Positions 4,141 through 24,327 of a stretch of DNA of 24,504 nucleotides are shown here, piece by piece. Made by a program: the position numbers and the translations under genes. A model generated the notes under the pieces. It was not told the DNA's origin. It made no database searches and saw nothing but the letters and a program-made list of their open reading frames with translations. Where the stretch lies: the NCBI GenBank assembly GCA_001797185.1, contig MGOS01000096.1, forward strand, positions 3,448 through 27,951, given 5' to 3'. The DNA comes from Clostridiales bacterium GWB2_37_7. Lineage in GTDB: Bacteria > Bacillota > Clostridia > Lutisporales > Lutisporaceae. How positions within the stretch are numbered: position 1 is the first letter of the stretch; each line of letters opens with the position of its first letter.

Positions 4141-4683
4141 TTATTTCTTATGAAGTATTGGTGACAGTCTCTTATAAATAAGTATTGTAATAAATGATAT
4201 AATAATACCTTTTATCATGTTGAAAGGTACTGTTGTAGACCAAATCAAGCCTAAAGTATCCGGTGATGGTGCTGTTCCTAAGTAGAATGGCAGCAAGATG
4301 TAGTAATTAGCCAAAGCCATGACAGCGGTCATAACAACTGTACCAACAGCCAAGCCTAAAACAGCTGATTTCTTATTCTTGCTTTTGAAGTATATCATAC
4401 TGGAAGCGAGAACAAAGGAAGCTCCTGTCAAGAAATTGGCTAGTTCTCCTACTCCACCTGTTTCTGTTTTTGTTATAAGGTGAAGAACGTTCTTAACAAG
4501 CTCTATAACCACGCCTGCGATGGGTCCAAAAGCAAAGGCGCCCACTATAGCAGGTATATCGCTTAAGTCAATCTTTAAGTATGGTGGAAAAAATGGCAGC
4601 GGGAATTCTAAAAACATAATCATATATGATAATGCTGATAACACCCCTATTTTTGTCATTAACTGAAGTTTTGAATTTCTCAT
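4141..4683 (-). CDS. ribU: ECF transporter S component, riboflavin-type (RibU-like)
   Basis: A ~180-aa polytopic membrane protein starting MRNSKLQLMTKIGVLSALSYMIMFLEFPLPF. GGGAGGA lies 7 nt upstream of the ATG at 4683. An FMN riboswitch sits directly upstream. The longer ORF start at 4749 would run through the riboswitch terminator, so I reject it. Confidence 0.8.
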   Translation of the reverse strand: MRNSKLQLMTKIGVLSALSYMIMFLEFPLPFFPPYLKIDLSDIPAIVGAFAFGPIAGVVIELVKNVLHLITKTETGGVGELANFLTGASFVLASSMIYFKSKNKKSAVLGLAVGTVVMTAVMALANYYILLPFYLGTAPSPDTLGLIWSTTVPFNMIKGIIISFITILIYKRLSPILHKK

Positions 4684-4704
4684 AATTATTCCTCCCAAAA
4701 TACA

Positions 4705-4738
4705 TATAAAAAAGTCCCTGATGTATACTTCAGGGACA
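4705..4738 (-). terminator. FMN riboswitch expression platform (attenuator terminator)
   Basis: The minus strand reads GTCCCTG-aagtatacat-CAGGGAC followed by TTTTTTAT. It lies between the aptamer and the ribU RBS. Confidence 0.7.
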
Positions 4739-4751
4739 TAAATAGTCATAC

Positions 4752-4878
4752 AACTATCTCATCTTCTTCCATCCAGACTTTACTGTCGGCTTCGGAATTT
4801 AACCGAATCTGCACTGCTACGCACTGCTCGCGGGCTTTACCGCCGGTAGGGAATTACACCCCTCCCTGAAGATTGTTA
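4752..4878 (-). ncRNA. FMN (RFN) riboswitch aptamer
   Basis: The minus strand reads TCTTCAGGGAGGGGTGTAATTCCCTACCGGCGGTAAAGCCCGCGAGC...GGTTAAATTCCGAAGCCGACAGTAAAGTCTGGATGGAAGAAG. This matches the highly conserved RFN element core strings. Confidence 0.9.
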
Positions 4879-17426: not shown

Positions 17427-17957
17427 TTAGAATTCCGGTTCTATTAAGCCATAGTTTCCATCCTTACGCTTATATATTACATTAACCTCTTCGGTATCAG
17501 AATTTGAGAATACGAAGAAGCTGTGACCCAATAGCTCCATCTGCATGGCCGCCTCTTCTGCAGGCATTGGCTTGTAAGCAAACTTCTTGGTTTTTACAAT
17601 TTCGATCTCATCCTCATCATCCTCTGGTCTACTTTCAAACAATGTATCAAATCTCAAATTATAATCCTTCATTTTTCTCTCTAGCTTTGTTTTCTGCTTG
17701 CGCATTTGCCTTTCGAGCTTTTCTATTACATTATCAATCGACATGTACATATCATCAGTAGCCTCTTCACTTCTAATGATAATACCATTAAAAGGAATTG
17801 TTACCTCAAATATATGTCTACCCTTTTCTACACTTAAAGTTGCATGCGCCTCTGAGTTTGGTCCAAAGAACCTTTCAAATTTCGAAAGTTTTTTGTTTAC
17901 CTTATCCTTTAGAGCATCAGTAAGTACGATGTTTCTGCCACTAACTACTATACGCAT
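17427..17957 (-). CDS. hpf: ribosome hibernation promoting factor, long form (RaiA/YfiA/YvyD family)
   Basis: 176 aa. The N-terminus is an S30AE domain (MRIVVSGRNIVLTDALKDKVNKKLSKFERFF) and the C-terminus is a dimerisation domain (GHSFFVFSNSDTEEVNVIYKRKDGNYGLIEP). AAAGGAGAGG lies upstream of the ATG. Confidence 0.9.
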   Translation of the reverse strand: MRIVVSGRNIVLTDALKDKVNKKLSKFERFFGPNSEAHATLSVEKGRHIFEVTIPFNGIIIRSEEATDDMYMSIDNVIEKLERQMRKQKTKLERKMKDYNLRFDTLFESRPEDDEDEIEIVKTKKFAYKPMPAEEAAMQMELLGHSFFVFSNSDTEEVNVIYKRKDGNYGLIEPEF

Positions 17958-18919: not shown

Positions 18920-19233
18920 AGGCTGGTGTTGGTGATTCGAACTGTTCCGGGATTTCTACTGCCAAGACTTCGTTCTACCCAAGCACACAATACCTTAATA
19001 TTTTCTTTGGCGTACATTTCTAGCTGACCTGGTCTTTGTCCCCACACTCGCCGTCTGGAGGTTTCGCTACCAACATTTGAGTCCCTCACTACTACCTCTC
19101 TCAGCATATAGCAGATTAATTACATGCCATGCTGGACGGACTTACCTCTAAGCCGCACCATGATCGTAGAGCCTTGCTCTGCTTACGTGGATCGTTTTGC
19201 CTGCGACTGGCATCGATTTTCAACCACAGACCT
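18920..19233 (-). ncRNA. unclassified GC-rich structured RNA forming the 5' leader of the zinc-ribbon gene
   Basis: The region is GC-rich in an AT-rich genome and is transcribed from a near-consensus promoter. A compact three-way junction is visible: CCGTC/GACGG (19139..19135 with 19055..19051), CAGCAT/ATGCTG (19134..19102), and GAGG/CCTC (19098..19095 with 19061..19058). The ends are complementary: AGGTCTGTGGTTG (19233..19221) pairs with CAACACCAGCCT (18931..18920) with bulges. Confidence 0.45.
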
Positions 19234-19253
19234 AGTTATTACACCATATCATC

Positions 19254-22801: not shown

Positions 22802-22832
22802 TAAAAAACCGTTGGAAAAATCCAACGGTTTT
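22802..22832 (-). terminator. strong intrinsic terminator ending the fliC / ribozyme / exon-fragment transcript
   Basis: CCGTTGGA-aaaa-TCCAACGG (22809..22828), followed on the minus strand by TTTTTTAC. It starts 9 nt after the TAG of the flagellin fragment. Confidence 0.8.
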
Positions 22833-22840
22833 TGTGTTTA

Positions 22841-22885
22841 CTATCTTAGAAGTTGTAGAACTCCTTGAGGTGCTTGGTTTGCTTG
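22841..22885 (-). pseudogene. orphan flagellin 3' exon-like fragment (last 14 codons plus stop)
   Basis: The minus strand reads CAA GCA AAC CAA GCA CCT CAA GGA GTT CTA CAA CTT CTA AGA TAG, encoding QANQAPQGVLQLLR*. The end of fliC encodes QANNAPSGVLQLLK*. That is 11/14 identical residues and roughly 75% nucleotide identity, so it is a diverged copy rather than a recent duplicate. Confidence 0.65.
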
Positions 22886-23202
22886 CGGACCATCAATTAT
22901 GTTTCCATAACTGCCAGACTATATCTTCATCCTATTATATAGGAGCCGGGCACTTCGGGACACCTCAATATCCCTACAGACCTCATCGCCATGACTAATG
23001 CTTTAGGCGGTACGTCTTAGTCGTTGAACCTTCTCCAACCTTTCGGCACAGGAGCTCGGCTGCTGATTATCCAATCCGACCTGCTTTTTAACCTATCACG
23101 CTTGTCCTTTCGAACTGCGTTGTAGAGAGATCAGCTTAAGGAAGTTCCAGCAATTCACCCGGTTATTCATTTAAGGATTGCTCCTTAAGGGACCCCAAAT
23201 AA
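22886..23202 (-). ncRNA. group I intron-like ribozyme, ORF-less, subgroup IA-like architecture
   Basis: On the minus strand: P GAATTGCTGGAA (23156..23145), Q AATCAGCAGCC (23068..23058), R GTTCAACGACTAAGACGTACC (23029..23009), S AAGATATAGTC (22927..22917). Pairings: P4 TTGCTG/CAGCAG; P7 GACTA/TAGTC; P3 CCGGG (23162..23158) / CCCGG (22950..22946); P8 hairpin 22930..22944; P9 TTATG-GAAA-CATAA (22910..22897); P6 capped by GAAA. Extra hairpins between P7 and P3 resemble P7.1/P7.2. A terminal G at 22886 directly abuts the flagellin-like codons. Confidence 0.75.
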
Positions 23203-24327
23203 CTACTTAAGGAGTTGTAAAACTCCACTCGGTGCGTTATTTGCTTGAGCCAACATTGCTTGTGCTGCTTGTTGAAGGATGTTGTTCTTTGTAGACTCCA
23301 TGATTTCCTTCGCCATATCTACGTCTCTGATACGAGATTCTGCAGCTGTTAAGTTTTCTGAAGATGTATCTAAGTTCTTTACAGTATACTCTAATCTGTT
23401 TTGAATAGCACCTAGATCTGATCTTCTGCTAGAAACTGTATCAATAGCAGCTTGTACTGATGTCATTGCATTAGCAGCATTTGTTGTAGAACTAACGTCT
23501 AATGCATTTACAGCTAATGCAGTAGCGCCAGTTGCTGCAATTGTAACTCCAAGTTTTTGTGAAGGATCATTTTCTGATCCAATTTGTAAACTCACTGCAG
23601 CAGCTGCAGTTGTTATAACTGTACCTGCCGCTCCGCCGCCTGCTACTGAAGCTTCAATACCTGCAGAAGTTTGAGAGCCATTAACTGTAATCTTGATCCC
23701 CATTTTATCGAAATCCAAAACGCCTGCTGAACCATCAGCAAGAGTTATATTTTGTGTGTCACCAGAGCCTGTTGCTGTCATAATATAATCACCAGCAGCA
23801 GCTCCTTCAGTTATTGTATAAGTTTCACTAGCATCAGCACCACTAATATCAATTGCTGTAATACCAGCTGAGCCTACCTCTAAACCTGAAACGTCTAGTT
23901 GTACTCCAAAAGTACCATTTAATAATGTTTGACCATTAAATTTTGTTGACAAAGCAATTCTGTCAATTTCTGTAGTTAATGCTGTAATTTCAGAAGTAAT
24001 AGCAGTTCTATCATTAGCAGCTAAAGTACCATTTGAAGCTTGTGTTGCCAGCTCATTCATTCTTTGTAGAATTGATTGAGTTTCGTTTAATGCACCTTCT
24101 GCAGTCTGAATCATAGAAATACCATCCTGAGCATTTCTGCTAGCCTGATTAAGACCTCTAATCTGACCTCTCATCTTTTCAGAGATAGAAAGACCAGCAG
24201 CGTCATCGCCGGCTCTGTTGATTCTTAAACCAGATGATAGTTTTTCAATAGATTTTGCACTTTTATCGTTGTTGACTCCCAATTGACGGTTTGCGTTCAA
24301 CGCCATTATATTGTTGTTAATTCTCAT
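23203..24327 (-). CDS. fliC: flagellin
   Basis: 374 aa. Conserved N-terminus MRINNNIMALNANRQLG...GLRINRAGDDAAGLSISEKMRGQIRGLNQASRNAQDGISMIQTAEGAL and C-terminus LGAIQNRLEYTVKNL...ILQQAAQAMLAQANNAPSGVLQLLK, with an Ala/Gly/Thr-rich variable middle. AAGGAGGAA lies upstream of the ATG. Confidence 0.9.
   Translation of the reverse strand: MRINNNIMALNANRQLGVNNDKSAKSIEKLSSGLRINRAGDDAAGLSISEKMRGQIRGLNQASRNAQDGISMIQTAEGALNETQSILQRMNELATQASNGTLAANDRTAITSEITALTTEIDRIALSTKFNGQTLLNGTFGVQLDVSGLEVGSAGITAIDISGADASETYTITEGAAAGDYIMTATGSGDTQNITLADGSAGVLDFDKMGIKITVNGSQTSAGIEASVAGGGAAGTVITTAAAAVSLQIGSENDPSQKLGVTIAATGATALAVNALDVSSTTNAANAMTSVQAAIDTVSSRRSDLGAIQNRLEYTVKNLDTSSENLTAAESRIRDVDMAKEIMESTKNNILQQAAQAMLAQANNAPSGVLQLLK

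What the first reader, a model, noticed from the sequence alone, without database searches (positions are those of the whole stretch)
22841..23250. Group I ribozyme core between the fliC stop codon and a second, diverged flagellin C-terminal mini-exon
Immediately 3' of the fliC TAG (23205..23203) lies ~315 nt of GC-rich sequence carrying all four classical group I elements (P, Q, R, S). The S element is the textbook AAGATATAGTC. Consistent P3, P4, P6, P7, P8 and P9 pairings and IA-like extra hairpins are also present, and there is no internal ORF. The element ends in a G at 22886. The very next nucleotide begins CAA GCA AAC..., 14 in-frame codons (QANQAPQGVLQLLR*) that repeat the conserved flagellin C-terminus, followed 9 nt later by a strong terminator. 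In fliC, the nucleotide before the homologous CAA GCA AAT is a U (..TTG GCT|CAA..). That is what a group I 5' splice site needs, so the fragment looks like the true 3' exon of an intron-containing flagellin allele. Yet fliC upstream is already complete, and I could not find an internal guide sequence that pairs with ..TTGGCU. Three readings are possible. (a) It is a 5'-truncated intron plus exon 2 left by recombination between tandem flagellin paralogs. (b) It is an active ribozyme that processes or remodels the fliC mRNA 3' end or swaps the C-terminal helix. (c) It is a ribozyme-plus-exon cassette acquired as a unit. Group I introns in bacterial protein-coding genes are rare (a flagellin case is reported for Geobacillus). 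A compact ORF-less copy with a duplicated exon end is unusual.
Basis: partly seen in the sequence, partly recalled or inferred. Interest (0 to 1): 0.85.

Follow-up and report, generated by a model that had tools for sequence, protein, structure and literature searches.

The report
Flagellin intron carrying spare gene ending
The flagellin gene contains an intact self-splicing group I intron whose first 45 bases are an in-frame copy of the gene's last 14 codons plus a stop. Spliced and unspliced messages should therefore both encode full-length flagellin, and the same layout occurs in over 100 other Bacillota flagellin genes.

Summary
Rfam's group I model matches 22895..23211(-) end to end (81.6 bits, E 1e-19). 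It is followed by G22886, a 14-codon mini-exon (QANQAPQGVLQLLR*) and the only terminator.

The intron does not start after the fliC stop. It starts 45 nt upstream, after U23248 (..GCU|CAA..). It pairs with GGCU|C, giving a U·G wobble at the splice site.

The 45 nt up to the stop are an in-frame "exon mimic" lying in the P1 loop. Codons 2-5 pair with the bases just after the stop (P1 extension).

This layout is not a one-off scar. I found it in about 110 flagellin genes of Bacilli and Clostridia.
- The ribozyme helices covary (51 of 81 pairs).
- The P1 extension covaries with the mimic (0 of 5000 permutations reach the observed value).
- Both coding copies show protein-level purifying selection.
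- The two copies share lineage-specific residues but not codons.

A homologous intron sits at a second site (DVD|MAKE) in Bacillaceae.

Verdict: a probably active group I intron of an apparently undescribed, widespread variant. Spliced and unspliced mRNAs both encode full-length flagellin. Splicing itself is untested.

The parts
23248..24327 (-). fliC exon 1 (ATG 24327 to the GCU Ala codon ending at U23248)
   Evidence: ORF. It is 100% identical to the flagellin of Clostridiales bacterium GWB2_37_7. The 5' splice site follows U23248.
23203..23247 (-). Exon mimic: the first 45 nt of the intron, in frame with exon 1. It encodes QANNAPSGVLQLLK plus UAG and occupies the P1 5' strand, extension and loop.
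   Evidence: Equivalent copies occur in 28 genome loci and about 85 metagenome loci. VLQLL is invariant while third codon positions vary.
23247..23251 (-). P1 5' strand, GGCU|C. The splice site lies between U23248 and C23247.
   Evidence: RNAalifold and pair counts give U·G in 26/26, C-G in 26/26 and G-C/G·U in 26/26. The MFE fold of 23262..23168 forms it.
23191..23195 (-). Internal guide sequence GGGUC (P1 3' strand): G23195-C23247, G23194·U23248, G23193-C23249, U23192·G23250, C23191-G23251
   Evidence: It sits at the same position relative to P2 as the guide of the Priestia megaterium intron.
23196..23203 (-). P1-extension 3' strand GUUAUUUG (includes the G of the UAG stop). It pairs with CAAAUAAC at 23243..23236 (codons 2-4 of the mimic).
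   Evidence: MFE fold. Cognate versus permuted complementarity is 6.11 versus 4.43 bp, N=105, 0/5000. Close relative L147 shows a compensatory A>C / U>G change.
23236..23243 (-). P1-extension 5' strand CAAAUAAC, inside the exon mimic
23211..23226 (-). Small hairpin in the P1 loop: GGAGUU-UUAC-AACUCC (codons GVLQL of the mimic)
   Evidence: MFE fold. Not tested comparatively.
23171..23188 (-). P2 hairpin UUAAGGA-GCAA-UCCUUAA
   Evidence: All 8 pairs show compensatory changes across 26 sequences.
22895..23211 (-). Rfam RF00028 match: catalytic core P3-P9 with a P5 extension and P7.1/P7.2 (subgroup IA features)
   Evidence: The window keeps 77 of 81 consensus pairs. Covariation score is 0.482 versus 0.167 shuffled, 0/500.
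22917..22927 (-). S element AAGAUAUAGUC. Its UAGUC is the P7 3' strand, pairing with GACUA of the R element (23022..23018).
   Evidence: P7 is invariant in 26/26.
22886..22886 (-). Terminal intron G (omega G). The 3' splice site lies between G22886 and C22885.
   Evidence: G precedes the CAR GCN AAY exon in 28/28 genome loci.
22841..22885 (-). 3' exon: QANQAPQGVLQLLR plus UAG. It is identical to the C-terminus of the closest intron-less flagellins.
   Evidence: Across loci, 1962 pairwise codon differences are synonymous and 372 change the amino acid.
22803..22833 (-). Intrinsic terminator (AAAAACCGUUGGA-UUUU-UCCAACGGUUUUU plus U run) ending the fliC transcript after the 3' exon
   Evidence: The same terminator is conserved in L147.

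Best explanation
This is an ORF-less group I intron of subgroup IA in the flagellin gene. Its boundaries are U23248|C23247 (5') and G22886|C22885 (3'), giving 362 nt.

Its first 45 nt are an in-frame copy of the 14 codons it displaces, plus a stop codon (an 'exon mimic'). The mimic is built into the ribozyme:
- Its first base and the last exon bases pair with the guide GGGUC (P1, with a U·G wobble at the splice site).
- Codons 2-4 pair with the 8 nt that begin at the last base of the stop codon (P1 extension).
- The remaining codons form the P1 loop.

Transcription runs through to the single terminator after the 3' exon. A ribosome on unspliced RNA reads the mimic and releases a complete flagellin ending ..QANNAPSGVLQLLK. 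After GTP-initiated self-splicing, the message instead ends in the consensus ..QANQAPQGVLQLLR.

The intron is therefore harmless whether or not it splices (a fail-safe intron). That matters for a very highly translated bacterial mRNA, in which ribosomes reach the splice site before the ribozyme is made.

Shown here: the ribozyme match, the boundaries, the pairings and their covariation, the recurrence of the layout, and coding constraint on both copies.
Inferred: that splicing actually occurs, and that neutrality is why the mimic is kept.
For: - Full-length Rfam hit.
- The core is homologous to the intron that interrupts Priestia megaterium flagellin at DVD|MAKE.
- The same layout occurs in 28 genome loci and in 82 metagenome loci plus about 6 variants.
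- Across 26 sequences, 81 consensus pairs are 97.1% paired. 51 show compensatory changes. The covariation score is 0.482 versus 0.167 shuffled (0/500) and at most 0.089 when partners are slid.
- The P1 U·G is present in 26/26.
- The codon before the mimic is GCU in 33/33 genome and 78/80 metagenome cases, versus 19/26 in intron-less controls.
- The terminal intron G is present in 28/28.
- The P1 extension is complementary to its own mimic: 6.11 bp versus 4.43 bp when permuted, N=105, 0/5000, with more than 50 distinct helix sequences.
- L147, a close relative of the window, shows a compensatory change in that helix.
- The MFE fold of the window's 5' region gives exactly P1, a bulge, the P1 extension and P2.
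- The 3' exon shows 1962 synonymous versus 372 amino-acid-changing pairwise codon differences. In the mimic, VLQLL is invariant while third positions vary.
- The two copies in a locus share lineage-specific residues at positions 8, 11 and 14 (0/2000 permutations). Their codons are no more alike (0.48) than between loci (0.52-0.54).
- In L228 and L239 the same site carries a short P1 loop with an early stop, so splicing is needed there.
- The window keeps 77 of 81 consensus pairs.
- There is no terminator before the 3' exon.
Against: - There is no RNA or protein evidence of splicing for this or any member of the variant.
- Unspliced RNA already encodes a full flagellin, so the host does not obviously need splicing.
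- In the fungal analogue, most such predicted introns did not splice (PMC7315562).
- The guide extension pairs with the 3' exon only at chance level (3.79 bp), so an extended P10 is not supported.
- P1 proper is short: 5 bp here and 4 bp in Bacilli.
- Terminating ribosomes would cover the guide.
- The permutation tests do not correct for shared ancestry.
- The GCU test is weak, because controls are already 73% GCU.
Confidence: 0.7

Rival explanations
1. Silent passenger. The intron no longer splices. fliC ends at UAG 23205..23203, and the ribozyme plus mini-exon are just a structured 3' UTR left from an older intron-containing allele.
For: The upstream ORF is complete, and gene callers annotate it as the flagellin. 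In Tremella mitochondria, predicted introns carrying a 5' copy of the next exon were mostly not spliced (PMC7315562). The window's mimic has three non-consensus residues yet is intact.
Against: An unused ribozyme and an untranslated mini-exon should decay. Instead the core, P1 and P1 extension covary. The 3' exon shows strong synonymous-only variation and tracks host-specific residues. The window keeps 77 of 81 pairs and differs from L147 by a compensatory change.
Confidence: 0.12
2. Regulated alternative ending. Splicing is gated by translation. Ribosomes reading or terminating on the mimic unwind P1 and the guide, which begin at the stop codon. Heavily translated RNA would therefore make the K-ending isoform, and poorly translated RNA (for example CsrA-repressed) would splice and later make the R-ending isoform, or gain a different stability.
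For: The stop codon directly abuts, and in the window overlaps, the P1-extension strand. Both isoforms are under coding constraint. The fliC leader carries a hairpin with AGGA in its loop plus an SD, resembling the CsrA sites of the B. subtilis hag leader (read; the resemblance is from my own knowledge). Temperature-dependent splicing with a proposed regulatory role is reported for the Geobacillus flagellin intron (Hayakawa and Ishizuka 2012, as cited in PMC4853749).
Against: Nothing here measures translation or splicing. The two C-termini differ little, so a functional difference between isoforms is not evident. Simple neutrality explains the same data.
Confidence: 0.15
3. Recombination scar or cassette. 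A 5'-truncated intron plus exon 2 from a second flagellin paralog or a foreign allele was joined by chance behind a complete fliC.
For: Flagellin paralogs in tandem are common. Rearranged products exist: hybrid intron L195, tandem array L180 and orphan copy L118.
Against: The Rfam match is full length. The junction is the same in about 110 loci of many genera. The bases after the stop are complementary to that locus's own upstream copy, which a chance join would not give.
Confidence: 0.03

Closest known systems
Group I (IA2) self-splicing introns in flagellin genes of Geobacillus stearothermophilus and thermophilic Bacillus (Hayakawa and Ishizuka 2009, 2012; known to me only through PMC3984707 and PMC4853749)
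   Same: Same host gene, same phylum and an ORF-less IA-type ribozyme. The window's core is about 75% identical to the intron I found in Priestia megaterium flagellin and in about 34 other Bacillaceae loci.
   Different: The Bacillaceae relatives I examined sit 23 codons upstream (DVD|MAKE). They stop translation after about 5 junk codons (YALAA*), so the unspliced RNA gives a truncated protein. The window's intron sits at MLA|QAN and carries a full exon mimic. I could not read the original papers, so I do not know which site they describe.
Phage and bacterial group I introns in protein-coding genes (T4 td, nrdB; Bacillus recA, nrdE) with an in-frame stop soon after the 5' splice site (reviewed in PMC3984707)
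   Same: Subgroup IA architecture, insertion in a conserved coding segment, and an in-frame stop codon inside the intron's 5' part, thought to keep ribosomes out of the core.
   Different: In those introns the read-through peptide is meaningless and the product is truncated. Here the read-through is a faithful copy of the displaced exon with the stop at the native position.
Fungal mitochondrial introns carrying a 5' in-frame duplicate of the following exon (Tremella fuciformis nad4, cox1, nad3, nad5, cob; PMC7315562)
   Same: The 5' end of the predicted intron encodes an analogue of the next exon, so the gene can end inside the 'intron'. A duplicated exon end is a by-product or companion of intron mobility.
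   Different: Those are kilobase-sized organellar elements. Most did not splice, and no RNA pairing between the duplicate and the ribozyme was described. Here the element is 362 nt with no ORF, is bacterial, is conserved across two classes, and has the duplicate built into P1.
Engineered trans-splicing group I ribozymes with an extended guide sequence (Sullenger and Cech 1994; Köhler et al. 1999; from my own knowledge)
   Same: The design logic matches: a short P1 with U·G, an internal loop, then an antisense duplex to target bases downstream of the splice site, followed by a ribozyme that replaces the 3' part of a message with its own 3' exon.
   Different: Those are artificial and act in trans. 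This one is natural, acts in cis, and replaces a segment with a near-identical one.
Bacterial group I ribozymes with alternative outcomes (IStron alternative splice sites, noted in PMC4853749; c-di-GMP-gated ribozyme of Clostridioides difficile, from my own knowledge)
   Same: A bacterial mRNA whose coding output depends on whether and how a group I ribozyme acts.
   Different: No ligand sensor and no transposase are present. The alternatives here are two versions of the same C-terminus.

Membership tests
Group I intron (Rfam RF00028) | Covariance-model score above the curated gathering score over the whole model | tested here: met
   81.6 bits against a cut-off of 50, model positions 1-253/253, E 1.3e-19.
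Group I intron (Rfam RF00028) | Conserved core helices P3-P8, including the P3/P7 pseudoknot, supported by covariation | tested here: met
   Of 81 pairs in 18 helices, 97.1% are paired and 51 have compensatory changes. No shuffle reaches the observed score (0/500), and slid controls score at most 0.089 against 0.482. P4 and P7 are invariant and so uninformative. The window keeps 77 of 81 pairs.
Group I intron (Rfam RF00028) | 5' splice site after a U that forms a U·G wobble with an internal guide sequence (P1) | tested here: met
   U23248·G23194 lies within GGCU|C / GGGUC. The U·G is present in 26/26 relatives and appears in the MFE fold. The helix itself barely varies, so support comes from conservation and from the covarying extension.
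Group I intron (Rfam RF00028) | Terminal G (omega G) at the 3' splice site | tested here: met
   G22886 is followed by CAAGCAAAC. G precedes the exon in 28/28 genome loci.
Group I intron (Rfam RF00028) | Guanosine-initiated self-splicing | not testable with these tools
   Needs an in-vitro transcript with GTP and Mg2+, or RNA from a carrier strain.
Subgroup IA (IA2 as reported for the Geobacillus flagellin intron) | Extra helices P7.1/P7.2 between P7 and the 3' strand of P3 | tested here: met
   Two hairpins lie between GACUA and GUGCCCGG (alignment columns 261-322 and 326-349), and nearly all their pairs show compensatory changes. Features separating IA2 from IA1 and IA3 were not examined.
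Flagellin-gene group I intron as described in the literature (interrupting intron) | The intron interrupts the ORF, so functional flagellin requires splicing | tested here: not met
   In the window, unspliced RNA encodes a 374-aa flagellin with a complete C-terminus. The requirement is met by the homologous DVD|MAKE introns and by L228/L239 at the window's site.
Flagellin-gene group I intron as described in the literature (interrupting intron) | Same insertion site as the Geobacillus intron | not testable with these tools
   The two primary papers are not in the library, and no Geobacillus locus was among the rows returned.
Introns with a 5' duplicate of the downstream exon (Tremella type, PMC7315562) | The 5' end of the intron encodes an in-frame analogue of the following exon | tested here: met
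   The two copies agree at 11 of 14 residues in the window and are 62-82% identical in nucleotides across 28 loci.
Introns with a 5' duplicate of the downstream exon (Tremella type, PMC7315562) | A large mobile element, often with a homing endonuclease gene | tested here: not met
   The intron is 362 nt with no ORF on the coding strand.

The most novel reading that the evidence does not exclude
This may be a natural bacterial case of alternative terminal coding segments chosen by a ribozyme, with ribosome traffic as the selector. The stop codon of the exon mimic abuts the guide strand, so translation and P1 formation exclude each other. Flagellin mRNA that is being translated would yield one C-terminus. 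mRNA held silent (for example by CsrA) would splice and yield the other, or change its stability. That would link the flagellin translation checkpoint to RNA self-splicing.
Probability: 0.18. Interest if true: 0.85.

Novelty: new variant of a known kind. Interest (0 to 1): 0.72.

Why it matters
Group I introns in bacterial protein genes are regarded as rare and costly, because ribosomes run into them. This variant suggests one way round that cost. The intron carries a working copy of the exon end it displaces, folded into its own substrate helix, so the gene product is complete with or without splicing.

- It is common. I found no description of it in the literature I could search.
- It affects annotation. 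The deposited protein for this window ends at the first stop, and gene callers truncate the related DVD|MAKE-intron genes. The mature protein may carry a different C-terminus.
- It offers a natural counterpart to engineered 3'-exon-replacement ribozymes with extended guides.
- It provides a tractable system for asking how translation and self-splicing compete in bacteria, because several carriers are cultured type strains.

Tried and rejected
- **Rfam's P1 placement.** The model aligned P1 to the bases around the stop codon with several non-standard pairs. I replaced this with the comparative P1.
- **Other 5' splice sites near the stop.** ACU|CC pairing with GGGGU gives a frameshifted nonsense product. 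CUCCUUAAG/CUUAAGGAG competes with the well-supported P2. Both were rejected by reading.
- **An extended P10 with the 3' exon.** The guide pairs with the 3' exon at or below chance (3.79 versus 4.43 bp).
- **GCU codon as proof of the splice site.** It gives only modest support, because 19 of 26 intron-less controls also use GCU.
- **Column-wise pair counting for the P1 extension.** This was not possible because the register shifts by about 2 nt and the segment length varies. I used cognate-versus-permuted helix length instead.
- **P9.** It is visibly a GAAA-capped hairpin but is mis-registered in the MAFFT alignment, so it was not scored.
- **Homing endonuclease.** No ORF is present.
- **Literature.** Four successful searches found no description of this layout. 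Two searches failed on syntax. The Hayakawa and Ishizuka papers are not held.
- **First regular expression for the C-terminal peptide.** It was wrong and returned nothing. It was fixed.
- **Origin of the duplication.** No mechanism I considered explains it: homing with co-conversion, template switching or unequal exchange. None could be tested.
Full report
**1. What is in the sequence**

On the minus strand, fliC runs from ATG 24327 to UAG 23205..23203 and encodes a 374-aa flagellin. This protein is 100% identical to one deposited for the metagenome-assembled 'Clostridiales bacterium GWB2_37_7'. FlaG, FliD, FliS and an FlgN-like gene follow downstream.

Rfam's group I intron model matches 23211..22895 over its whole length, at 81.6 bits against a gathering score of 50 and E 1.3e-19. 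The classical P, Q, R and S elements are present.

The element ends in G22886. The next 45 nt read QANQAPQGVLQLLR plus a stop. A strong hairpin with a U-run (22833..22803) follows, and it is the only terminator-like site after the fliC coding region.

**2. Which copy is the 'normal' C-terminus**

The closest flagellins are 72-79% identical and include Geosporobacter subterraneus. They all end ..AMLAQANQAPQGVLQLLR, which is exactly the downstream mini-exon. The window's annotated protein ends ..AMLAQANNAPSGVLQLLK. One such relative, L002, has no intron and uses GCG for the Ala codon before CAA.

**3. A homologous intron at another site**

About eleven Bacillaceae flagellins in the same search are cut short at ..RDVDYALAA. 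In Priestia megaterium this is caused by a group I intron (78.5 bits) inserted between DVD and MAKE, with an in-frame stop five codons into the intron. Its core, P5 extension and P7.1/P7.2 align with the window's element at about 75% identity. The window's ribozyme therefore belongs to a flagellin-intron family but sits 23 codons further downstream.

**4. The layout is widespread**

Twenty-eight loci, counting the window itself, show the window's layout:
- a flagellin ORF complete to ..Q[AS]xxxxxxVLQLLR*;
- then the intron;
- then a second QANQ[QA]PQGVLQLLR*.

A looser screen counted 33. Carriers include Peribacillus, Metabacillus, Exiguobacterium, Planococcus, Sporosarcina and Oceanobacillus. 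Among Clostridia they include Clostridium acetireducens, C. gallinarum, and Acetivibrionales and Caldicoprobacterales MAGs.

A metagenome scan anchored on the S element plus the start of the 3' exon again hit its limit. It gave 82 further cases plus about six minor variants.

Two loci, L228 and L239, carry the intron at the same site with only a short P1 loop and an early stop (QFEQVA*). Splicing would be needed there for an intact flagellin.

**5. The ribozyme is under selection**

I aligned 26 of these introns. RNAalifold predicts P1-P8 with 51 compensated pairs. Counting a curated structure that includes the P7 pseudoknot gives:
- 97.1% of cells paired;
- a covariation score of 0.482, against 0.167 in shuffles (0/500) and at most 0.089 when partners are slid.

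P2, the P5 extension, P6, P7.1, P7.2 and P8 carry most of the signal. P4 and P7 are invariant. The window keeps 77 of the 81 pairs.

**6. Where the intron begins**

The alignment places the last exon bases and the first intron base, G-C-U|C, opposite GGG[C/U] just 5' of P2 in all 26 sequences. The U·G wobble falls at the splice site.

In the window the pairs are G23251-C23191, G23250·U23192, C23249-G23193, U23248·G23194 and C23247-G23195.

The codon before the upstream Gln is GCU in 33/33 genome and 78/80 metagenome cases. Intron-less controls use GCU in 19/26, so this is supportive but not strong. A G precedes the 3' exon in 28/28 genome loci.

Splicing at these sites joins ..AUG UUG GCU to CAA GCA AAC.. 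in frame.

**7. The upstream copy is part of the ribozyme's substrate helix**

In almost every locus, the bases immediately after the stop codon are the reverse complement of codons 2-5 of that locus's own upstream copy. Examples are CAAAUAA/UUAUUUG (window), GAAUCAAA/UUUGAUUC, CUCAACAA/UUGUUGAG, CAAUAG/CUAUUG and GCAAAUAACCA/UGGUUAUUUGC.

The longest Watson-Crick helix between the two segments compares as follows:

| Data set | Cognate pairs | Permuted pairs | Permutations reaching observed |
|---|---|---|---|
| 28 genome loci | 6.29 bp | 5.05 bp | 0/5000 |
| 105 non-redundant loci | 6.11 bp | 4.43 bp (sd 0.098) | 0/5000 |

The 105 loci use more than 50 different helix sequences. These permutations ignore shared ancestry. 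However, the closest relative of the window, L147, differs by a matched A>C / U>G change in this helix.

Folding 23262..23168 alone returns P1, a 3-nt bulge, an 8-bp P1 extension that includes the G of the stop codon, a small loop hairpin and P2. The energy is -25.2 kcal/mol, z -2.4.

The same guide strand pairs with the 3' exon only at chance level (3.79 bp). An extended P10 is therefore not supported.

**8. Both coding copies look translated**

Pairwise codon differences across 28 loci:

| Copy | Synonymous | Amino-acid-changing | Variable columns by codon position (1, 2, 3; of 14 each) |
|---|---|---|---|
| 3' exon | 1962 | 372 | 6, 3, 14 |
| Upstream copy | 1820 | 1227 | 11, 6, 14 |

The upstream copy's amino-acid changes are concentrated in residues 2-8. 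Its VLQLL is invariant.

Across 102 loci, the two copies in a locus agree at lineage-specific residues far more often than permuted pairs do:

| Residue | Observed match | Permuted match | Permutations reaching observed |
|---|---|---|---|
| 8 | 0.91 | 0.61 | 0/2000 |
| 11 | 1.00 | 0.94 | 0/2000 |
| 14 | 0.90 | 0.68 | 0/2000 |

Yet where the amino acids agree, the codons are identical only 48% of the time. That is no higher than between loci (52-54%).

The agreement is therefore not recent duplication or gene conversion. It is what two segments kept by the same protein-level requirements would show. The two copies in a locus are on average 71% identical in nucleotides.

**9. Best reading**

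The element is a probably active group I intron of 362 nt (23247..22886). Its P1 loop holds an in-frame mimic of the exon end it displaces. Unspliced RNA gives flagellin ending ..NNAPSGVLQLLK, and spliced RNA gives ..NQAPQGVLQLLR.

The simplest rationale is neutrality. In a bacterium, ribosomes follow the polymerase and reach the splice site before the core is transcribed. An ordinary intron would therefore cost truncated flagellin, whereas this one would not.

The ribozyme and both copies remain constrained, which suggests both messages are used. That inference is from comparative data only.

A more adventurous reading rests on the stop codon abutting the guide. Translation and P1 formation would then exclude each other, making splicing depend on ribosome traffic. 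Nothing here tests that.

**10. Rivals**

- A dead passenger in the 3' UTR is the main alternative. It is what was found for most similar-looking fungal mitochondrial introns (PMC7315562). It fits poorly with points 5-8.
- A one-off recombination scar is contradicted by the recurrence of the layout and by the locus-specific complementarity.
- A cassette that travels with its own exon fits the uniform residues 2-7 of the 3' exon. It does not fit the exon's host-specific residues.

**11. Comparison with what is known**

Flagellin group I introns (IA2, temperature-dependent splicing) are reported for Geobacillus and thermophilic Bacillus. I know them only through reviews (PMC3984707, PMC4853749), because the primary papers are not held.

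In-frame stops early in bacterial and phage group I introns are a recognised feature (PMC3984707). What differs here is that the read-through is a faithful copy of the exon, built into P1 with a covarying extension.

Four full-text searches found no description of this layout. I rate it a new variant of a known kind.

A rough neighbour-joining tree of the cores places the DVD|MAKE introns as one clade inside the diversity of the MLA|QAN introns. The Clostridial members, including the window, fall near the midpoint root. This hints that the layout seen here is the older one, but the tree is crude.

**12. Limits**

- There are no expression data.
- Both collection scans were capped, so counts are lower bounds.
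- Loci were selected by motifs within the family.
- The statistics are not phylogeny-aware.
- The origin of the duplication is unexplained.

Noticed in passing
window 19015-19240 (-) and 17427-17957 (-): A full-length raiA RNA motif (180.9 bits) lies upstream of a treble-clef zinc-finger ORF and a hibernation-promoting-factor (S30AE) gene.
   Followed up: no
window 4757-4877 (-): An FMN riboswitch aptamer (119.5 bits) lies upstream of the 202-aa ORF at 4141-4749.
   Followed up: no
window 24465-24336 (-): The fliC leader carries a sigma-D-like promoter: TAAA (24465-24462), 16 nt, CCGATAT (24445-24439). It also has a hairpin GUCAGAAAGGAUUCUGAC (24372-24355) with AGGA in the loop, plus the SD AAGGAGG (24342-24336). 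This resembles the two CsrA sites of the B. subtilis hag leader. Read; the resemblance is from memory and untested.
   Followed up: no
L001 3511-3874; also L005, L006, L019, L020, L023, L030 and about 28 others: A homologous group I intron interrupts Bacillaceae flagellin genes between DVD and MAKE. Gene callers therefore truncate these proteins at ..RDVDYALAA (P0045, P0076, P0081, P0087 and others).
   Followed up: partly
L024, L051, L061, L077, L088, L109, L227, L228: These single flagellin genes carry both introns: DVD|MAKE and MLA|QAN.
   Followed up: partly
L195 (3' splice site at about 2542 in the + orientation): A hybrid intron has the 5' half of the DVD|MAKE type and the 3' half plus 3' exon of the MLA|QAN type. 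The 23-codon middle exon is missing. It looks like a deletion by recombination between two tandem homologous introns.
   Followed up: partly
L180 1678-2109; L118 (second match): L180 has a tandem array of intron, mini-exon, intron, mini-exon, as unequal exchange between the 45-nt repeats would give. L118 has an orphan intron plus mini-exon (QANQQPQGVLQLFR*) with no flagellin ORF directly upstream.
   Followed up: no
L228 and L239: The MLA|QAN intron occurs here without an exon mimic. It has a short P1 loop with an early stop (GCT|CAATTTGAACAGGTTGCATAA, QFEQVA*). This could be the ancestral form or a deletion derivative.
   Followed up: partly
L013 3490-6624: Five matches to the Q...R core pattern fall within 3.2 kb of a Lachnospiraceae MAG contig with no flagellin similarity. 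This may be several group I introns packed into one gene or region.
   Followed up: no
L147 3978-4444 (-), contig MCHG01000989.1: This is the closest relative of the window's intron. It has the same terminator and the same unusual ..APSGVLQLLK upstream ending. Its upstream copy differs from the window's by two synonymous changes and one amino-acid change; the latter is compensated in the RNA helix.
   Followed up: yes
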